A stretch of 5,917 nucleotides of DNA from a virus (lineage: Duplodnaviria; Heunggongvirae; Uroviricota; Caudoviricetes), in the IMG/VR virus record IMGVR_UViG_2703718812_000001, one strand, 5' to 3'. The position numbers and the translations under genes were made by a program. Below are positions 154-5,027 of this stretch, one piece after another. Every line of letters begins with the position of its first letter. Position 1 is the first letter of the stretch. The notes below the pieces were generated by a model. The model saw only the letters and a program-made list of their open reading frames with translations, did no database searches and was not told the origin of the DNA.

Positions 154-954
154 ATGATTACTCCTGCACAGCAACACTGGCAGAACGTGATGGCACAGCG
201 CGCAGGCCGGGCGAATGAAGGCGTGGACCACGCCGCGCGTACCGCGCATGAAGAGGTGCTGTATCGTCTGCGTCTGGCACAGGCCCGGCTTAAAGGCGTA
301 CAGGCCAGAAGCGCGAAAGCCGCCATCAAAAAAGAGTTGTTGCCGGACTTTTCCGGCTGGATTGAGGGAACGCTGGAGGCTGACGGCGGGCAGCAGGATG
401 AAGTGATTGCCACGCTGATGGTGTGGGCGATTGACTGCGGCGATCTTCCGCTTGCGCTGCGTATTGGTGCGTATGTGGTCCGTCACAACCTCATCATGCC
501 GGATAACTTTGGCCGTACTGCTGCCACGGTACTGACCGAAGAAATCTGTAACCCGGTATTGACGCAGGCCGGGACGGATGCCGACGCGGATTTGTCCACC
601 TTTATCGAACCACTGGACACACTTTGGGAAATTGTCGCCAACCAGGATATGCCGGACGAAGTGCGAGCCAAATTATGCAAGGCGTGCGCCTTTGCCCGTC
701 GTGGTCTGACCGATGCAGACAACATGGCCTTATCACTGAAGCTGCTGCGCGAAGCGATGCACCTGAACCCGAACGCAGGTGTGAAACGCGAGATTGCAAC
801 CCTTTCCCGCGCCCTGAAAAAAGCCGATTCCGCAGCCGAACCAGAAGACGCCAGCGCACCGCAGGCGCAGGACGAAAGCAGCAAAAGTAAAAAGACAACG
901 CGGAAGCCTGCAACACGAAAAACCACCGCGACGCAGAAGGCGAAGCGCGGTTAA
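154..954 (+). CDS. M: Terminase small (endonuclease) subunit, P2 gpM-like
   Basis: 266-aa ORF with ATG at 154 preceded by GGAGAG (144-149). The N-terminus MITPAQQHW and internal motifs (MPDEVRAKL, GVKREI) resemble P2 gpM as I recall it. The C-terminus is a lysine/arginine/threonine-rich basic tail. Position after N matches P2. Confidence 0.85.
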   Translation: MITPAQQHWQNVMAQRAGRANEGVDHAARTAHEEVLYRLRLAQARLKGVQARSAKAAIKKELLPDFSGWIEGTLEADGGQQDEVIATLMVWAIDCGDLPLALRIGAYVVRHNLIMPDNFGRTAATVLTEEICNPVLTQAGTDADADLSTFIEPLDTLWEIVANQDMPDEVRAKLCKACAFARRGLTDADNMALSLKLLREAMHLNPNAGVKREIATLSRALKKADSAAEPEDASAPQAQDESSKSKKTTRKPATRKTTATQKAKRG

Positions 955-1752: not shown

Positions 1753-2076
1753 GTGAGCACCATTCAAACAGGGATCACAGAGCAGGTTATTGCGTGGCTC
1801 TTTGACCACCTGCCAACGGTGTATGCAGTAGGCGCGGCGGTCAGCATTTCCGCGCTGATGAGTCTTTATGACGGACGAACACTGGTTCAGACCGTAACGG
1901 GATCGCTGGCGTGCGGCGTTCTTGCCATGGCCGTGGCCGGGTCGTTGCGCTTCTTCGGGTTTCCTGAAGATGCCGTGACGTTTATCGGCGCATCAATCGG
2001 TTTTATGGGCGCAGAGAAAGCACGCGACAAGGTTATTGCGGCCTTTAATCGCAGGGTGAAGGAGAAGGACGAATGA
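1753..2076 (+). CDS. Holin, class I (three predicted transmembrane segments), lambda-S-like rather than P2 gpY-like
   Basis: GTG 1753 lies 6 nt after GGGGGAG (1740-1746) and directly after the X stop (1748-1750). The 107-aa product has three hydrophobic segments (PTVYAVGAAVSISALMSLY, TVTGSLACGVLAMAVAGSL, AVTFIGASIGFMGA) and a charged C-terminal tail (EKARDKVIAAFNRRVKEKDE). It sits immediately upstream of the endolysin. The part of track ORF 1534..2076 upstream of 1753 overlaps L and X and is probably not translated. Confidence 0.75.
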   Translation: MSTIQTGITEQVIAWLFDHLPTVYAVGAAVSISALMSLYDGRTLVQTVTGSLACGVLAMAVAGSLRFFGFPEDAVTFIGASIGFMGAEKARDKVIAAFNRRVKEKDE

Positions 2077-2465
2077 GCAACACATTTAAATTCAGCAGCC
2101 GGAGCGAAAAGAATTTGCAGGGCGTAAATCCTGATCTGGTGAAAGTGACCCGACGGGCACTGGAAATCTCGGAAGTGGATTTTGGTATCACCGAAGGGGT
2201 GCGCAGCCGTTACCGCCAGAAGCAACTTGTGGCCACGGGTAAGAGCCAGACCATGAACAGCCGCCACCTTACGGGGCATGCCGTGGATGTTGTGGCTTAT
2301 GTCGGCAGCCAGGTGTCATGGGAATGGCCGCAGTACGAAAAAATCGCAGCAGCATTCAGACAGGCCAGCCGGGAACTGAATATTCCGGTGGAATGGGGCG
2401 GAGACTGGAAGACCCTGAAAGACGGACCGCATTTTCAGTTACCACACGGAGCCTATCCGGCATGA
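2073..2465 (+). CDS. Endolysin, peptidase M15 family zinc metallopeptidase (L-alanyl-D-glutamate peptidase-like)
   Basis: 130-aa ORF whose ATG overlaps the holin stop (ATGA). It carries the M15 zinc-ligand pattern: His65-x6-Asp72 in SRHLTGHAVDV (His codon cac at 2265-2267) plus a downstream His in DGPHFQLPHG. The hydrophilic N-terminus gives no sign of a signal-anchor. Size and motif spacing resemble the phage T5-type endolysin. Confidence 0.8.
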   Translation: MSNTFKFSSRSEKNLQGVNPDLVKVTRRALEISEVDFGITEGVRSRYRQKQLVATGKSQTMNSRHLTGHAVDVVAYVGSQVSWEWPQYEKIAAAFRQASRELNIPVEWGGDWKTLKDGPHFQLPHGAYPA

Positions 2466-2869
2466 AGCTCTGGCCCACGCTGGGTGTCGCTTTCCTTCTG
2501 ATTGCCGCATGGGGAACATCCATGCGTCTGTCATGGTCGCTGGGCCGGGAGAACGCCAGAAACGAAGCGCAGGCCAGCGCCCTGAAAAGTACCGTCGACA
2601 CCCTGAATATCATCAGCGCCGGGGTACAGGATATGCAGCAGGTGCTGGCGCAACTCCGCGTGGAAAATCAACAGCGAAATCAGGACGGAGAGGCCAGACG
2701 TGAACAGCTACGCAACGATATTGCAAAAGATGAATGCGCCCACGCTTTGCCTGACGCTCGTTTTACTGACAGGTTGCGCAGGCACGCAGAACGCGCCACG
2801 GCCAGCGCCGTCAGTCCGGCTTATACCGCAGACGCTGACCATACCGGTAACGCCTCCCCCATTCCCTGA
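2462..2869 (+). CDS. lysB: i-spanin (Rz / P2 LysB-like inner-membrane spanin)
   Basis: ATG 2462 overlaps the endolysin stop (ATGA), with GGAG about 9 nt upstream. The N-terminal segment MKLWPTLGVAFLLIAAWGTS is a predicted transmembrane anchor, followed by a charged, Q/E/R-rich, probably coiled-coil periplasmic domain. It lies downstream of the endolysin and contains the embedded o-spanin start. The track ORF starts at 2318, inside the endolysin, which is unlikely. Confidence 0.7.
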   Translation: MKLWPTLGVAFLLIAAWGTSMRLSWSLGRENARNEAQASALKSTVDTLNIISAGVQDMQQVLAQLRVENQQRNQDGEARREQLRNDIAKDECAHALPDARFTDRLRRHAERATASAVSPAYTADADHTGNASPIP

Positions 2870-3020
2870 CACTCCCACATGGGGAAATCTCGGTATATGG
2901 GGCGACCGCCTTCTGGATGCACTGGAAACCTGTAACGCGGATAAACGGGCCATTGAATTACTGGAACAGCGCAGGCTGCAAAGACTGAACAACGAGGACA
3001 ACAACCATGCTGAAAACTGA
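2700..3020 (+). CDS. lysC: o-spanin (Rz1 / P2 LysC-like outer-membrane lipoprotein), overlapping and extending beyond the i-spanin in another frame
   Basis: Lipoprotein signal with lipobox LLTGC (LCLTLVLLTGCAG), then a proline-rich segment (PRPAPSVRLIPQTLTIPVTPPPFPDTPTW) and a cysteine near the C-terminus. GTG 2700 follows GGAGAGG (2687-2693) by 6 nt. ATG 2730 (MNAPTL...) is an alternative start. The overlapped arrangement matches P2 lysB/lysC. Confidence 0.65.
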   Translation: MNSYATILQKMNAPTLCLTLVLLTGCAGTQNAPRPAPSVRLIPQTLTIPVTPPPFPDTPTWGNLGIWGDRLLDALETCNADKRAIELLEQRRLQRLNNEDNNHAEN

Positions 3021-3474
3021 TTCCCTGCGTGAAGCCATGACCCGTTCATGCCGATGGTGTCAGGCTAACCCGGAAAAATTCACCATTTTCGTGGAGAGCG
3101 GCAACATTGAAACGACAGGAGAAACCCCATCGTTTGTTTACCGCTATCAGATGGTGATGTTTGTCATGGATTACGCCGGGGAGCTGGACGACCTCACGCT
3201 GCCGCTGCTGGCGTGGTTATCAGAAAATCAGCCACAGTTGTTGCTCAATCCGGAGCGTAATCAGGACATCAAATTCTCCGCCGTTATCAATGACGATGAC
3301 AGCGCCGATCTCCTGTTTACGCTCCCCCTGCGGGAACGCGTTCGCATTACGCGCAACAGTCAGGGGACACCGCAGGCAGAACACCTGCCGGAGCCAAAAC
3401 CCCGTCTGCCCTCTTCCGAAGGCGACTGGTCGCATGTATTCCAGGATGTGACGTGGGGTGAAAGCGATGGATAA
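3007..3474 (+). CDS. R: Tail completion protein R (P2 gpR-like)
   Basis: 155-aa ORF. MLKTDSLREAM, ANPEKFTIFVESGNI and LPLLAWLSENQPQLL resemble P2 gpR (recalled as MLKPDSLRRAL..., LAWLRENQP...). The start overlaps the o-spanin 3' end by 14 nt. Order after the lysis genes matches P2. Confidence 0.8.
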   Translation: MLKTDSLREAMTRSCRWCQANPEKFTIFVESGNIETTGETPSFVYRYQMVMFVMDYAGELDDLTLPLLAWLSENQPQLLLNPERNQDIKFSAVINDDDSADLLFTLPLRERVRITRNSQGTPQAEHLPEPKPRLPSSEGDWSHVFQDVTWGESDG

Positions 3475-4102
3475 GGCATTCACCCGCGTGGATGAAACCT
3501 TTGAGGCCATCCGCGACAGCCTGAATCAGCAGGCCATCAATAACATCGCCAGAAAGCTGGCACAGGATTTACGCCGCGCCCAGCAGGCGCGCATCCGGTC
3601 ACAGAAAGCGCCGGACGGGACCGCATGGACACCACGCAGACGCCGCGTAACCCGGATACAGGAGCGCATTCGCTTTATCTGGAATAACGAAGCACGCACG
3701 CTGAAAAACTGGCATCACGACACGGGGAAATACGGGCGAACCATTACCGGGTGGGATGAGGATAAAAACAATATCCGCACGTTTTACCGGGATGACATCG
3801 ACCGTTTTCTGGAAATACGCACCCGGCGCATCAACCAGGACAGCACAAAGCGCGTCCCCATGTTTGTAAAACTGCGCACCGCCCGCTACCTGAAAGCCCG
3901 TGCAGATACTTCCGGTGTGACGGTGGGTTACAGCGGCGTGGCCGCACGTATTGCACGCGTTCATCAGTTCGGTGAGCGCGATCAGGTTGCGCCGGGCATT
4001 TTCACCGATTACCCGGTACGTGAGCTGTTGGGCATCAGTCAGGCAGATGAGCGCCTGATTTATAACTCTGTGCTGGGCCGGATTGCGGAGGCTGTACGGT
4101 GA
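3467..4102 (+). CDS. S: Virion morphogenesis / tail completion protein S (P2 gpS-like), apparently enlarged
   Basis: The ORF contains the family-like segments APDGTAWTPRRRR and ARIARVHQFGERDQV, and the C-terminal RELLGISQADERLI. The start is ATG 3467 (211 aa) or GTG 3458 (214 aa, as in the track), both overlapping the end of R. The product is longer than the roughly 150 aa I recall for P2 gpS. Confidence 0.7.
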   Translation: MDKAFTRVDETFEAIRDSLNQQAINNIARKLAQDLRRAQQARIRSQKAPDGTAWTPRRRRVTRIQERIRFIWNNEARTLKNWHHDTGKYGRTITGWDEDKNNIRTFYRDDIDRFLEIRTRRINQDSTKRVPMFVKLRTARYLKARADTSGVTVGYSGVAARIARVHQFGERDQVAPGIFTDYPVRELLGISQADERLIYNSVLGRIAEAVR

Positions 4103-4680
4103 GCGCAGAACTCATGCGACTGCTGAGCAATATCATCCGCACCGGGATCATCTCTGAAGTTGATGAGGAATCCTGGTGCGTGCGCGTTCGCAGCGGCGAA
4201 CTGGAAACAGGCTGGCTGCGCTGGAACACCACGCGCGCGGGTGCCTTCAATGTGTGGCTGCCGCCATCACCCGGCGAACAGGTGGTAATTGCCTGCATCG
4301 GCGGCAACCCGGAAACCGCCATGATAATTGGCAGTCTGTGGAGTGATGCCATTCCGGCACCCGGCAAAAGCCTGAAAGAAATCGTGGTCAGCGCGCCGGA
4401 TGGCGCGGTGTTCCGCTACGACGCGGACGCAGGCGCACTGAGCGCCAGCGGCATGAAAACGGCCACCCTGCAGGCATCCGTCAGCGTGACACTGGACACG
4501 CCTGTCGTGGAATGCACAGACCTTCTGAGAACAGCGACGCTTGACGTCACAAAAGGGGGAAAGATGAGCGGCAATATCACGCACAGCGGCGGCGACTTCA
4601 CCTCAAACGGCATCACAGTGCATACGCATAAACACGGTGGCGTTAAAGGTGGCAGCGATTCGACAGGAGGCCCGCAGTGA
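4099..4680 (+). CDS. V: Baseplate assembly protein V (baseplate spike, P2 gpV-like)
   Basis: GTG 4099 overlaps the S stop (GTGA), with GGAGG at 4087-4091. LSNIIRTGII, GEQVVIACIGGNPETAMIIGSLWSD and the C-terminal HTHKHGG resemble P2 gpV (recalled as LRNMIRTGII..., LHTHKHPG...). Confidence 0.85.
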   Translation: MSAELMRLLSNIIRTGIISEVDEESWCVRVRSGELETGWLRWNTTRAGAFNVWLPPSPGEQVVIACIGGNPETAMIIGSLWSDAIPAPGKSLKEIVVSAPDGAVFRYDADAGALSASGMKTATLQASVSVTLDTPVVECTDLLRTATLDVTKGGKMSGNITHSGGDFTSNGITVHTHKHGGVKGGSDSTGGPQ

Positions 4681-5027
4681 CAACCCGCTACACAGGAATG
4701 AACCCGGACGGGACGGGAAACCTGAACGATATGGAGCACCTGAAACAGTCAGTCAGGGACATCCTGACCACCCCGCTGGCAAGCCGGGTTATGCGACGGG
4801 AATATGGCAGCCTTGTGCCTGATTTGATTGACGAACCCATGAATAACACCACGCGTCTGCAATGCATGAGTGCTGCCGTGATTGCGCTGACACGATGGGA
4901 ACCCCGCATTGCCCTGAATGCCATCGACGTTGTCTGGAAAGCGGGAGGCCGCGCAGGGGTGACGCTGTCGGGCACTGTCATGCAGACCATGCAGAATGTT
5001 GAGTTAACCATCACGCTGAGGGAGTAA
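4677..5027 (+). CDS. W: Baseplate assembly protein W (GPW/gp25 family, P2 gpW-like)
   Basis: GTG 4677 overlaps the V stop (GTGA), with AGGAGG at 4664-4669. MTTRYTGMN, VRDILTTPLASRVMRREYGSLVPDLIDEP and TRWEPRIAL resemble P2 gpW (recalled as MTARYLGMN..., RVMRRDYGSL...). Confidence 0.85.
   Translation: MTTRYTGMNPDGTGNLNDMEHLKQSVRDILTTPLASRVMRREYGSLVPDLIDEPMNNTTRLQCMSAAVIALTRWEPRIALNAIDVVWKAGGRAGVTLSGTVMQTMQNVELTITLRE

What the first reader, a model, noticed from the sequence alone, without database searches (positions are those of the whole stretch)
3640..3860. S protein appears enlarged by an internal segment of lower GC
The ORF is 211-214 aa, whereas I recall P2 gpS and typical family members as about 150 aa. 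The extra length seems to lie between the conserved APDGTAWTPRRRR segment and the VPMFVKLRTARYLKA / VHQFGERDQV core. That stretch (RIQERIRFIWNNEARTLKNWHHDTGKYGRTITGWDEDKNNIRTFYRDDIDRFLEIRTRRINQDSTKR) is rich in W/N/D/K/R and its DNA looks more AT-rich than the surrounding genes. It could be an acquired insertion or extra domain. My memory of the family's length range is uncertain, so this is tentative.
Basis: inference. Interest (0 to 1): 0.5.

Follow-up and report, generated by a model that had tools for sequence, protein, structure and literature searches.

The report
Tail-completion protein S with inserted beta-barrel
The P2-type phage tail-completion protein S encoded here really is about 60 residues longer than the classic one, because a small, well-conserved beta-barrel domain sits inside it; this long form is common in prophages of enteric bacteria and is an old, selected feature, not recently acquired foreign DNA.

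Summary
The window is the late operon of a P2-like (P88/Xuanwuvirus-type) prophage. Gene S (3467/3458-4102) encodes 211-214 aa, against 150 aa for P2 gpS. Alignment with P2 S, 186 O and other short forms shows one clean insertion of about 59 aa (residues 72-130, nt 3671-3847). Pfam Phage_tail_S and TIGR01635 each match in two pieces around it.

The insert is not a one-off. The long form occurs across Enterobacterales and Aeromonas, in about 48 phage records (isolated phages such as P88 among them) and in about 1,035 of 5,426 complete E. coli genomes. Within that group it is as conserved as the core.

The "lower GC" part is weak. GC is 0.538 against 0.579 (10th percentile), GC3 is not lower, and there are no flanking repeats, so nothing points to recent foreign origin.

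The mechanism is inferred. The barrel probably sits at the DNA-facing apex of the protein inside the neck, much like the extra beta domain reported for lambda gpZ. This is a modestly interesting variant of a known family.

The parts
3467..4102 (+). Gene S: long-form tail completion protein (virion morphogenesis protein). It encodes 211 aa from ATG 3467, or 214 aa from the alternative GTG 3458. The stop codon TGA is at 4100-4102. Residue numbers in this report count from GTG 3458.
   Evidence: ORF list. PF05069 scores 96.4 bits against a cut-off of 24.3. TIGR01635 scores 73.8 bits against 37.65. The ATGGATAA overlap with the gpR stop matches P2 and 186.
3458..3634 (+). N-terminal part of the S core (residues 1-59). 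It comprises two long helices (2-21, 24-48) and the conserved Q..R..Q..PDG loop, and ends in the basic run RRRR.
   Evidence: AF2 secondary structure. These residues align with residues 1-60 of the short forms.
3671..3847 (+). The insertion proper (residues 72-130: RFIWNNEARTLKNWHHDTGKYGRTITGWDEDKNNIRTFYRDDIDRFLEIRTRRINQDS). It is absent from P2 S, 186 O, Cartapus, KL3, ST79, phiX216 and the Pseudomonas phage S protein.
   Evidence: Alignments. The insert has no Pfam, NCBIfam or PADLOC match. Its invariant residues within the long subfamily are R80, L82, W85, G93, T97, G98 and F109.
3635..3850 (+). Predicted beta subdomain (residues 60-131). It has five antiparallel strands (60-75, 78-90, 93-100, 105-110, 114-131) with a short helical turn between strands 4 and 5. 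This is a small beta-barrel of SH3/Sm/WYL type, carried on the extended basic hairpin of the core.
3854..4099 (+). C-terminal part of the S core (residues 133-214). It comprises the PMF motif, a beta hairpin (146-157), a helix (160-171), strands 174-184 and the C-terminal helix (195-213).
3959..3982 (+). The most conserved core motif, VHQFGERD (residues 168-175). By eye it lines up with FLEFGTRY of 80alpha gp51, whose F81 and R87 contact the DNA end.
   Evidence: V168, H169 and G172 are invariant across long and short forms. The gp51 sequence is and the gp51-DNA contacts are from PMC11661146. The correspondence is my own inference, not a computed alignment.
3007..3474 (+). Gene R (tail terminator / tail completion protein R), immediately upstream and overlapping S by 8 nt.
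   Evidence: PF06891, E 3e-40, profile positions 1-133 of 133.
4099..4680 (+). Gene V (baseplate spike). Its GTG start overlaps the S stop codon (GTGA).
   Evidence: Phage_base_V, Phage_spike and Apex domains. ORF list. No terminator-like site on the + strand in 3300-4400.

Best explanation
Gene S encodes a long-form member of the P2 gpS / Mu gpG tail-completion-protein family (Pfam Phage_tail_S). This family belongs to the wider tail completion protein (TCP) group that includes lambda gpZ, SPP1 gp16.1, HK97 gp10 and 80alpha gp51.

Shown. (1) A segment of about 59 aa is inserted at the tip of the basic loop that follows the N-terminal helices. (2) It is predicted with high confidence to fold on its own as a five-stranded small beta-barrel of the SH3/Sm/WYL type. 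(3) The same insert sits at the same position throughout a subfamily of P2-like phages and prophages of Enterobacterales and Aeromonas, and is as conserved there as the core. It is therefore an old, selected domain insertion that works in viable phages such as P88, PhiR44_2, Shae_phiSM and SEN4. (4) It is not compositionally foreign DNA.

Inferred. In phage 80alpha the solved TCP is a single copy inside the neck channel. It caps the end of the packaged DNA with its extended loop and holds the tape-measure protein with its hairpin and helices. The insertion site here lies in the equivalent loop segment, between the N-terminal helix and the hairpin, and is flanked by strongly basic runs. The extra barrel therefore most likely projects from the DNA-facing apex of the protein. 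There it would act as an accessory module that helps seat the genome end (P2-type phages have single-stranded cohesive ends), or that docks the protein against the neck channel wall. I put about 0.3 on DNA-end binding, about 0.3 on a protein-protein docking role, and the remainder on other or purely structural roles.
For: - **Family membership.** PF05069 scores 96.4 bits in two stretches and TIGR01635 scores 73.8 bits in two stretches. P2 gpS gives one full-length stretch.
- **Position of the insert.** A clean gap block lies opposite residues 72-130 in all short forms.
- **Distribution.** 96 full-length homologues of 208-221 aa, down to 46% identity, come from E. coli, Salmonella, Edwardsiella, Serratia, Klebsiella, Erwinia, Dickeya, Yersinia and Sodalis. 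More distant carriers occur in Aeromonas, Brenneria and Pectobacterium. 48 phage records hold at least 80% of the insert. 1,035 of 5,426 complete E. coli genomes hold at least 80% of the window, most at 95-99% identity.
- **Conservation.** Mean column entropy is 1.14 in the insert, 1.48 in the N-terminal part and 1.09 in the C-terminal part. Twelve insert columns are invariant across 31 diverse sequences.
- **Exclusivity.** A profile of the insert, searched against 1.84 billion representative proteins, finds it only inside S proteins, fragments of them or chimeric calls, apart from weak repeat-summed matches, mostly WD40.
- **Composition.** GC3 is 0.672 in the segment and 0.649 in the rest of the gene. 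No flanking repeats.
- **Literature.** TCP lengths range from 112 to 255 aa and P2 gpS is 150 aa (PMC11099176). [quoted passage not shown]
Against: - The fold assignment rests on predicted models. Only one of the five full-length models reached mean pLDDT 81.8, and the others reached 61-69.
- No sequence-level link to WYL, Sm or any Pfam, NCBIfam or PADLOC family was found.
- Small beta-barrels are very common and serve many functions, so the fold alone does not imply nucleic-acid binding.
- The location of gpS in a P2-type virion has never been determined. The literature is contradictory: gpS is called both a sheath terminator and a tail completion protein, and T5 p143 sits at the tail tip (PMC11784142).
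- The mapping of the insertion site onto the 80alpha gp51 loop is by order of secondary-structure elements and a motif match made by eye, not by a residue-level superposition.
- P2 itself has cohesive ends and manages with the short form, so the barrel is not required for handling cos ends.
- A core-only NJ tree did not recover the long forms as one clade, so a single origin is inferred from the shared insert, not from the tree.
Confidence: 0.72

Rival explanations
1. The segment is recently acquired foreign DNA: a horizontally transferred cassette or mobile-element remnant that landed in gene S. This would explain its lower GC.
For: GC of 3640-3860 is 0.538, against 0.579 for the window and about 0.59 for the rest of the gene. 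The segment has no counterpart in P2, 186 or other short forms.
Against: GC3 is not lower (0.672 against 0.649), and the GC drop lies in codon positions 1 and 2, so it reflects amino-acid composition. The GC value is only at the 10th percentile of same-size windows. No flanking direct or inverted repeats beyond chance-level 10-15-mers were found. The insert is present at the same site and conserved in homologues of 25-50% identity from many genera. No free-standing or differently hosted copy of the domain exists among 1.84 billion representatives.
Confidence: 0.04
2. The long form is ancestral within this family, and the 150-aa proteins of P2, 186, Burkholderia phages and others arose by deletion of the beta domain.
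For: Lambda gpZ, a distant TCP, is also reported to carry a beta domain at its apex (PMC11661146). The midpoint-rooted core-only NJ tree does not place all long forms in one derived clade.
Against: Short forms dominate. The Pfam and TIGRFAM family models lack these positions. The outgroup TCPs are 109-156 aa: 80alpha gp51, SPP1 gp16.1, HK97 gp10 and Mu gpG. No sequence similarity was found between this insert and gpZ. The long form is confined to Enterobacterales and Aeromonas hosts, whereas short forms span Beta- and Gammaproteobacteria.
Confidence: 0.1
3. The insert is a single WD40-like blade, evolutionarily related to beta-propeller repeats.
For: The insert profile gives full-sequence E-values of 2e-9 to 5e-4 for several large NB-ARC/WD40 proteins, with 4-8 weak stretches each, covering profile positions about 7-37. 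phmmer against PDB sequences gives a weak match to the WD40 protein LIS1 (E 0.77).
Against: The scores arise only by summing many weak repeat matches. The Pfam WD40 model does not match the insert, even at E up to 10. FG-GAP and other repeat proteins appear in the same weak zone. The predicted fold is a five-stranded closed small barrel with a helical turn before the last strand, not a four-stranded propeller blade. The structural neighbours are Sm, WYL and Tudor domains, not propellers.
Confidence: 0.04
4. The barrel is a protein-protein docking module, not a DNA-end binder. It could bind the head completion or adaptor proteins, the terminator gpR or the tape measure protein. If gpS is really an external sheath-terminator-like protein, it could decorate the outside of the neck.
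For: SH3-like and Tudor-like barrels often mediate protein binding (structural neighbours). SPP1 gp16.1 helps build the tail interface that binds the connector (PMC11099176). P2 S mutants fail in head-tail joining or show abnormal sheaths, according to the literature summarised in PMC11784142. The net charge of the insert itself is only slightly positive (sequence).
Against: No partner can be identified from the sequence. gpR, gpL and gpV in the window look ordinary, with full-length matches to their Pfam families, so no obvious co-varying partner exists. The closest structural neighbours with the best scores are WYL domains from CapW, DriD and BrxR, several of them solved with DNA bound.
Confidence: 0.3

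Closest known systems
P2 gpS / phage 186 O / Mu gpG (Pfam PF05069 Phage_tail_S; TIGR01635 tail_comp_S)
   Same: The gene occupies the same position, directly after R with an 8-nt overlap, in a P2-type late operon. Both halves of the core match the family models above their cut-offs. The conserved motifs Q..R..Q..PDG, PMF..LR and VHQ[FY]G.RD are shared.
   Different: It is about 60 aa longer. The family models match in two pieces around a beta-barrel insertion that P2, 186 and the Burkholderia, Pseudomonas and Ralstonia phage proteins lack. Gene V follows directly, with overlapping stop and start codons. In P2 a terminator, orf30 and a separate promoter intervene.
Staphylococcus phage 80alpha gp51, the only tail completion protein with a solved in-virion structure (PDB 9mu2 chain P; PMC11661146)
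   Different: No detectable sequence similarity (hhalign probability 0.07%). gp51 is 115 aa and has no beta domain in the loop after the N-terminal helix. Its phage packages DNA by the headful mechanism with blunt ends, whereas P2-type phages have cohesive ends (the latter is established knowledge, not tested here).
Lambda gpZ (192 aa)
   Same: [quoted passage not shown] It comes from a cos phage, and it is needed to place the DNA end correctly at the head-tail junction (PMC11099176).
   Different: No sequence similarity to this protein or to its insert. Whether the two beta domains share a fold or an insertion point was not tested, because no gpZ model was available here. gpZ has not been located in any lambda reconstruction.
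WYL domains (CapW, BrxR, DriD, PafBC) and Sm/LSm/Hfq small beta-barrels
   Different: No HMM-level match to the WYL domain or any other Pfam family. Here the barrel is an internal insertion in a virion protein, not a ligand-sensing domain of a transcription factor or a ring-forming RNA chaperone. Ligand binding is untested.

Membership tests
Phage_tail_S (PF05069) / TIGR01635 tail_comp_S | Score above the curated cut-off of the family HMMs | tested here: met
   PF05069 scores 96.4 bits against 24.3. TIGR01635 scores 73.8 bits against 37.65. Both match in two stretches.
Phage_tail_S (PF05069) / TIGR01635 tail_comp_S | Gene lies immediately downstream of the R (tail terminator) gene in a P2-type late operon | tested here: met
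   gpR (PF06891) is at 3007-3474 and overlaps the S start by 8 nt. The gene order M-L-X-lysis-R-S-V-W-J matches P2.
Phage_tail_S (PF05069) / TIGR01635 tail_comp_S | Single compact domain of about 145-160 aa matched end to end | tested here: not met
   The protein is 211-214 aa and about 59 aa fall outside the model. This marks a subfamily variant; it does not exclude the protein from the family.
Phage_tail_S (PF05069) / TIGR01635 tail_comp_S | Essential for tail completion and head-tail joining | not testable with these tools
   This needs amber or deletion mutants of a P88-type phage.
Tail completion protein (TCP/Ne1) superfamily: 80alpha gp51, HK97 gp10, SPP1 gp16.1, lambda gpZ | Shared fold: long N-terminal helix, small beta sheet, C-terminal helix | tested here: met
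Tail completion protein (TCP/Ne1) superfamily: 80alpha gp51, HK97 gp10, SPP1 gp16.1, lambda gpZ | Single copy inside the neck lumen, between the DNA end and the tape measure protein | not testable with these tools
   This is known only for 80alpha/SaPI1 (PMC11661146). It is unresolved in lambda, SPP1 and Mu.
WYL domain / Sm-like small beta-barrel | Five-stranded bent antiparallel barrel with a short helical turn before the last strand | tested here: met
WYL domain / Sm-like small beta-barrel | Sequence match to the Pfam WYL or LSM family models | tested here: not met
   No Pfam family matched the insert at E up to 10, either for the window sequence or for 31 subfamily members scanned individually. 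No PADLOC match.
WYL domain / Sm-like small beta-barrel | Binds a nucleic-acid or small-molecule ligand | not testable with these tools
   This needs binding assays with the purified domain.
WD40 repeat | Match to the WD40 repeat HMM and several blades forming a propeller | tested here: not met
   No Pfam WD40 match. There is a single unit only. The similarity appears only as summed weak matches in multi-repeat proteins.

The most novel reading that the evidence does not exclude
The inserted barrel is a dedicated DNA-end module. It would be a WYL/Sm-like domain, grafted onto the DNA-capping loop of the tail completion protein, that grips the single-stranded cohesive end of the packaged genome inside the neck and so sets how the genome is primed for ejection. 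On this reading it arose independently of, but in parallel with, the apex beta domain of lambda gpZ. That would make these long-form S proteins a tractable handle on the still unresolved question of what tail completion proteins do and where they sit in contractile-tailed phages.
Probability: 0.2. Interest if true: 0.55.

Novelty: new variant of a known kind. Interest (0 to 1): 0.3.

Why it matters
Tail completion proteins are essential and near-universal in long-tailed phages, yet they remain among the least understood virion proteins. Only one has been seen in place, in 80alpha, and their location in lambda, SPP1, Mu and P2 is unresolved (PMC11784142, PMC11661146).

A widespread natural variant that carries an extra, confidently folded domain in the loop that touches the DNA end in 80alpha offers three things:
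- a built-in density marker of about 7 kDa for locating gpS in cryo-EM maps of P2-type necks;
- a natural short-versus-long comparison for function;
- a candidate nucleic-acid-binding module to test.

For annotation, the practical point is that Pfam and TIGRFAM split this protein into two matches and leave about 60 conserved residues undescribed, in a protein present in about a fifth of complete E. coli genomes.

It does not change the picture of P2-like phage biology, and domain insertions in phage structural proteins are common, so the finding is of modest interest.

Tried and rejected
1. **Compositional foreignness.** Sliding GC, percentile and codon-position GC show the dip is small and is not in GC3. 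Rejected.
2. **Mobile-element signature.** There are no meaningful direct or inverted repeats around the segment.
3. **Known family for the insert.** Pfam was scanned with the single sequence and with 31 members individually, and NCBIfam and PADLOC were also scanned; none gave a match. In PHROGs only S-protein families matched (phrog_36427, phrog_28496).
4. **Homology to lambda gpZ or 80alpha gp51 by hhalign.** No signal, although the template side was a single sequence, so power was low.
5. **WD40 lead** from the representative search and the PDB phmmer search. It is a repeat-summation effect and is not supported by Pfam or by fold.
6. **phiX216 'tail completion protein' of 244 aa** (top BFVD hit) as a second long form. 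It is a normal short S domain with an N-terminal extension of about 90 aa and no insert.
7. **Core-only NJ tree** to test monophyly of the long forms. It is not resolved: the sequences are short, the branches long and the rooting is by midpoint.
9. **Literature search for Xuanwuvirus/P88.** No description of the S insert was found.
10. The antisense ORF 3599-3964 (121 aa) was not pursued. It lies wholly inside the conserved S frame.

Full report
**Context.** The 5.9-kb window is the late operon of a P2-like prophage. On the + strand it encodes:
- the small terminase subunit gpM (154-954);
- the head completion protein gpL (1047-1550);
- tail protein X (1544-1750);
- a lysis cassette with a Peptidase_M15_4 endolysin (2073-2465) and LysB/LysC-type ORFs;
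- gpR (3007-3474);
- the S protein under study (3458/3467-4102);
- the spike protein gpV (4099-4680);
- gpW (4677-5027).

The S protein is 99% identical to that of Citrobacter phage Shae_phiSM (Peduoviridae, Xuanwuvirus) and 98% identical to that of Escherichia phage PhiR44_2. At least 80% of the window is found, mostly at 95-99% nucleotide identity, in 1,035 of 5,426 complete E. coli genomes.

**The observation.** The ORF encodes 214 aa from GTG 3458, or 211 aa from ATG 3467. The ATG overlaps the gpR stop codon by 8 nt (ATGGATAA), the same arrangement as P2 R/S and 186 N/O, so it is the likelier start.

P2 gpS is 150 aa and matches Pfam Phage_tail_S (148 positions) and TIGR01635 (144 positions) end to end in one stretch. 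The window protein matches both models in two stretches, and its C-terminal stretch (residues 124-206) begins at profile position 59.

An alignment with P2 S, 186 O, Cartapus, Burkholderia KL3 and a Pseudomonas phage S protein shows one clean gap block opposite residues about 72-130 (nt 3671-3847). Conserved motifs lie on both sides. A later alignment that added ST79 and phiX216 gives the same picture.

The 'lower GC' part is weak:
- GC is 0.538 against 0.579 for the window, which is the 10th percentile of same-size windows.
- The deficit lies only in codon positions 1 and 2.
- GC3 is 0.672 in the segment against 0.649 in the rest of the gene.
- There are no flanking repeats.

**Is it a one-off?** No. 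A search of 5.8 billion proteins returned 239 hits. Of the 120 listed, 96 are full-length proteins of 208-221 aa, with identities down to 46%. They come from E. coli, Salmonella, Edwardsiella, Serratia, Klebsiella, Erwinia, Dickeya, Yersinia, Sodalis and others, and all are annotated as phage virion morphogenesis protein.

A profile of the insert alone, searched against 1.84 billion cluster representatives, found 48 proteins. Nearly all are S proteins of 205-219 aa with the segment at about residues 70-127, or are fragments or chimeric gene calls. The more distant ones come from Aeromonas, Yersinia ruckeri, Brenneria and Pectobacterium. No free-standing copy or differently hosted copy of the domain was found.

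In the phage collection, 48 records carry at least 80% of the insert, always in the S gene of a P2-like phage. These include P88 and other Xuanwuvirus phages, Klebsiella prophage-derived phages, Enterobacter phiT5282H, Salmonella SEN4 and SEN5, and Klebsiella 3LV2017. By comparison, 314 records have any S match.

Within the long subfamily the insert is as conserved as the core. Mean column entropy is 1.14, against 1.48 for the N-terminal part and 1.09 for the C-terminal part. Residues R80, L82, W85, G93, T97, G98 and F109 are invariant. The segment is therefore an old feature under purifying selection that works in isolated, viable phages.

**What it folds into.** AlphaFold2 on a 97-sequence alignment gave a best model with mean pLDDT 81.8. 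The other four models reached 61-69. Residues 71-120 scored 91-95, the most confident part of the protein.

The core has two N-terminal helices (2-48), a small sheet and a C-terminal helix (195-213). Residues 60-131 form five antiparallel strands with a short helical turn between strands 4 and 5. Predicted alone (residues 56-136, 35 sequences), the segment gave the same strands in all five models, with mean pLDDT 78-82 overall and 85-92 in its core. It therefore behaves as an autonomous subdomain.

Foldseek against the PDB pointed to the same kinds of small barrel (WYL, Tudor, the eIF5A N-terminal domain), but without significant E-values. Foldseek against predicted viral structures gave WYL-domain phage proteins at 14-28% identity over 51-64 residues.

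The insert is thus a small beta-barrel of the SH3/Sm/WYL kind. No sequence model supports membership of any of those families, so the relation is one of fold only.

**How it probably works.** The gpS family belongs to the tail completion proteins, together with lambda gpZ, SPP1 gp16.1, HK97 gp10, TP901-1 ORF40, T5 p143 and Mu gpG. These range from 112 to 255 aa, are essential, and are poorly understood (PMC11099176; PMC11784142).

The only one seen in place is 80alpha gp51. It is a single copy inside the neck channel. Its extended loop caps the last base pair and phosphates of the packaged DNA through N55, Y78, F81 and R87. Its hairpin and helices bundle with the N-termini of three tape-measure chains. 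[quoted passage not shown]

The gp51 sequence and the S core share the same order of elements. By eye, gp51 'AAYSGFLEFGTRY' lines up with the most conserved S motif 'ARIARVHQFGERD', so that R87 would correspond to R174. The S insertion lies between the N-terminal helices and the hairpin. In gp51 that segment carries N55. In S it is flanked by very basic runs (RRRR on one side, KR..K.R..R..K.R on the other).

My inference is that the barrel projects from the DNA-facing apex of the protein. There it would either help seat the genome end or dock the protein to the neck channel wall. The genome end in P2-type phages is single-stranded and cohesive (established knowledge, not tested here).

This step is inferred, not shown. 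The position of gpS in P2-type virions is unknown and the literature conflicts on it. P2 manages with the short form. Small barrels serve many functions.

**Rivals.**
- Recent foreign acquisition is essentially excluded by GC3, the lack of repeats, the deep conservation and the absence of any donor.
- 'Long form ancestral, short forms by deletion' is unlikely, given the short outgroup proteins and the host range of the two forms. A core-only NJ tree could not settle it, however.
- The WD40 lead comes from summing weak repeat matches and is contradicted by Pfam and by the predicted fold.
- A protein-docking role for the barrel is a live alternative to DNA-end binding.

**Comparison and novelty.** The protein is a member of Phage_tail_S/TIGR01635 by score, gene position and core fold. 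It departs from the family's single-domain, 150-aa architecture. It works like a tail completion protein with an added apex module, analogous to lambda gpZ, but without detectable sequence relationship to it.

I found no description of this insert in the papers searched. The family models leave it unannotated, although the protein itself is routinely annotated in thousands of genomes.

I rate it a new variant of a known kind, of modest interest (0.3). Its main value is as a natural marker and comparison for locating tail completion proteins in contractile-tailed phages and for working out their function.

Noticed in passing
L011 (Aeromonas phage AP1, MT713136.1) 4002-4272, matching window 3717-3987: A 271-bp stretch that is 99.3% identical to the middle of this E. 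coli-type S gene sits in an unannotated intergenic gap of a 254-kb T4-like Aeromonas phage record. It covers part of the insert and part of the core, is not a whole gene, and has higher GC than its surroundings (0.56 against 0.49). It looks like an assembly or contamination artefact in that record, not real transfer.
   Followed up: partly
window 4099-4102 (S stop / V start); compare L001 (P2) 3868-4809: The S stop codon overlaps the GTG start of gene V (GTGA), and no terminator-like site lies on the + strand nearby. In P2, S ends an operon at a rho-independent terminator, and orf30 plus a separate activator-dependent promoter precede V. S and V therefore appear to be co-transcribed and translationally coupled here.
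   Followed up: partly
window 2073-2465; compare L002 (Shae_phiSM) 4463-5008 and L001 (P2) 1498-1995: The endolysin here is a Peptidase_M15_4 type of 130 aa. Shae_phiSM, whose S protein is 99% identical, carries a glycoside hydrolase 108 endolysin at the same position, and P2 has the K lysozyme. The lysis cassette is therefore mosaic among otherwise near-identical late operons.
   Followed up: no
window 2700-3020 (+), overlapping the LysB-like ORF 2318-2869: A LysC/Rz1-like ORF in a different frame partly overlaps the LysB-like ORF. It contains a lipobox-like LLTGC motif, which fits an outer-membrane spanin subunit.
   Followed up: no
window 154-954: The small terminase subunit gpM (266 aa) has its Pfam domain at residues 36-169, followed by a long low-complexity tail rich in A, E, S, K and T (...SSKSKKTTRKPATRKTTATQKAKRG). 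It was not compared with P2 gpM.
   Followed up: no
database proteins P0019 (352 aa), P0127 (282 aa), P0154 (268 aa): Some database entries join an S fragment to part of V, of gpL or of the gpO scaffold. P0019, P0127 and P0154 are each seen in a single cluster from a single contig. They are most likely frameshifts or chimeric assemblies, not real fusions.
   Followed up: partly
window 3683-3775 (insert residues about 76-106): The stretch ARTLKNWHHDTGKYGRTITGWDEDKNNIR resembles the strand-turn-strand consensus of WD40 repeats closely enough to pull multi-repeat WD40 proteins into a profile search. I judge this a motif-level resemblance only.
   Followed up: yes
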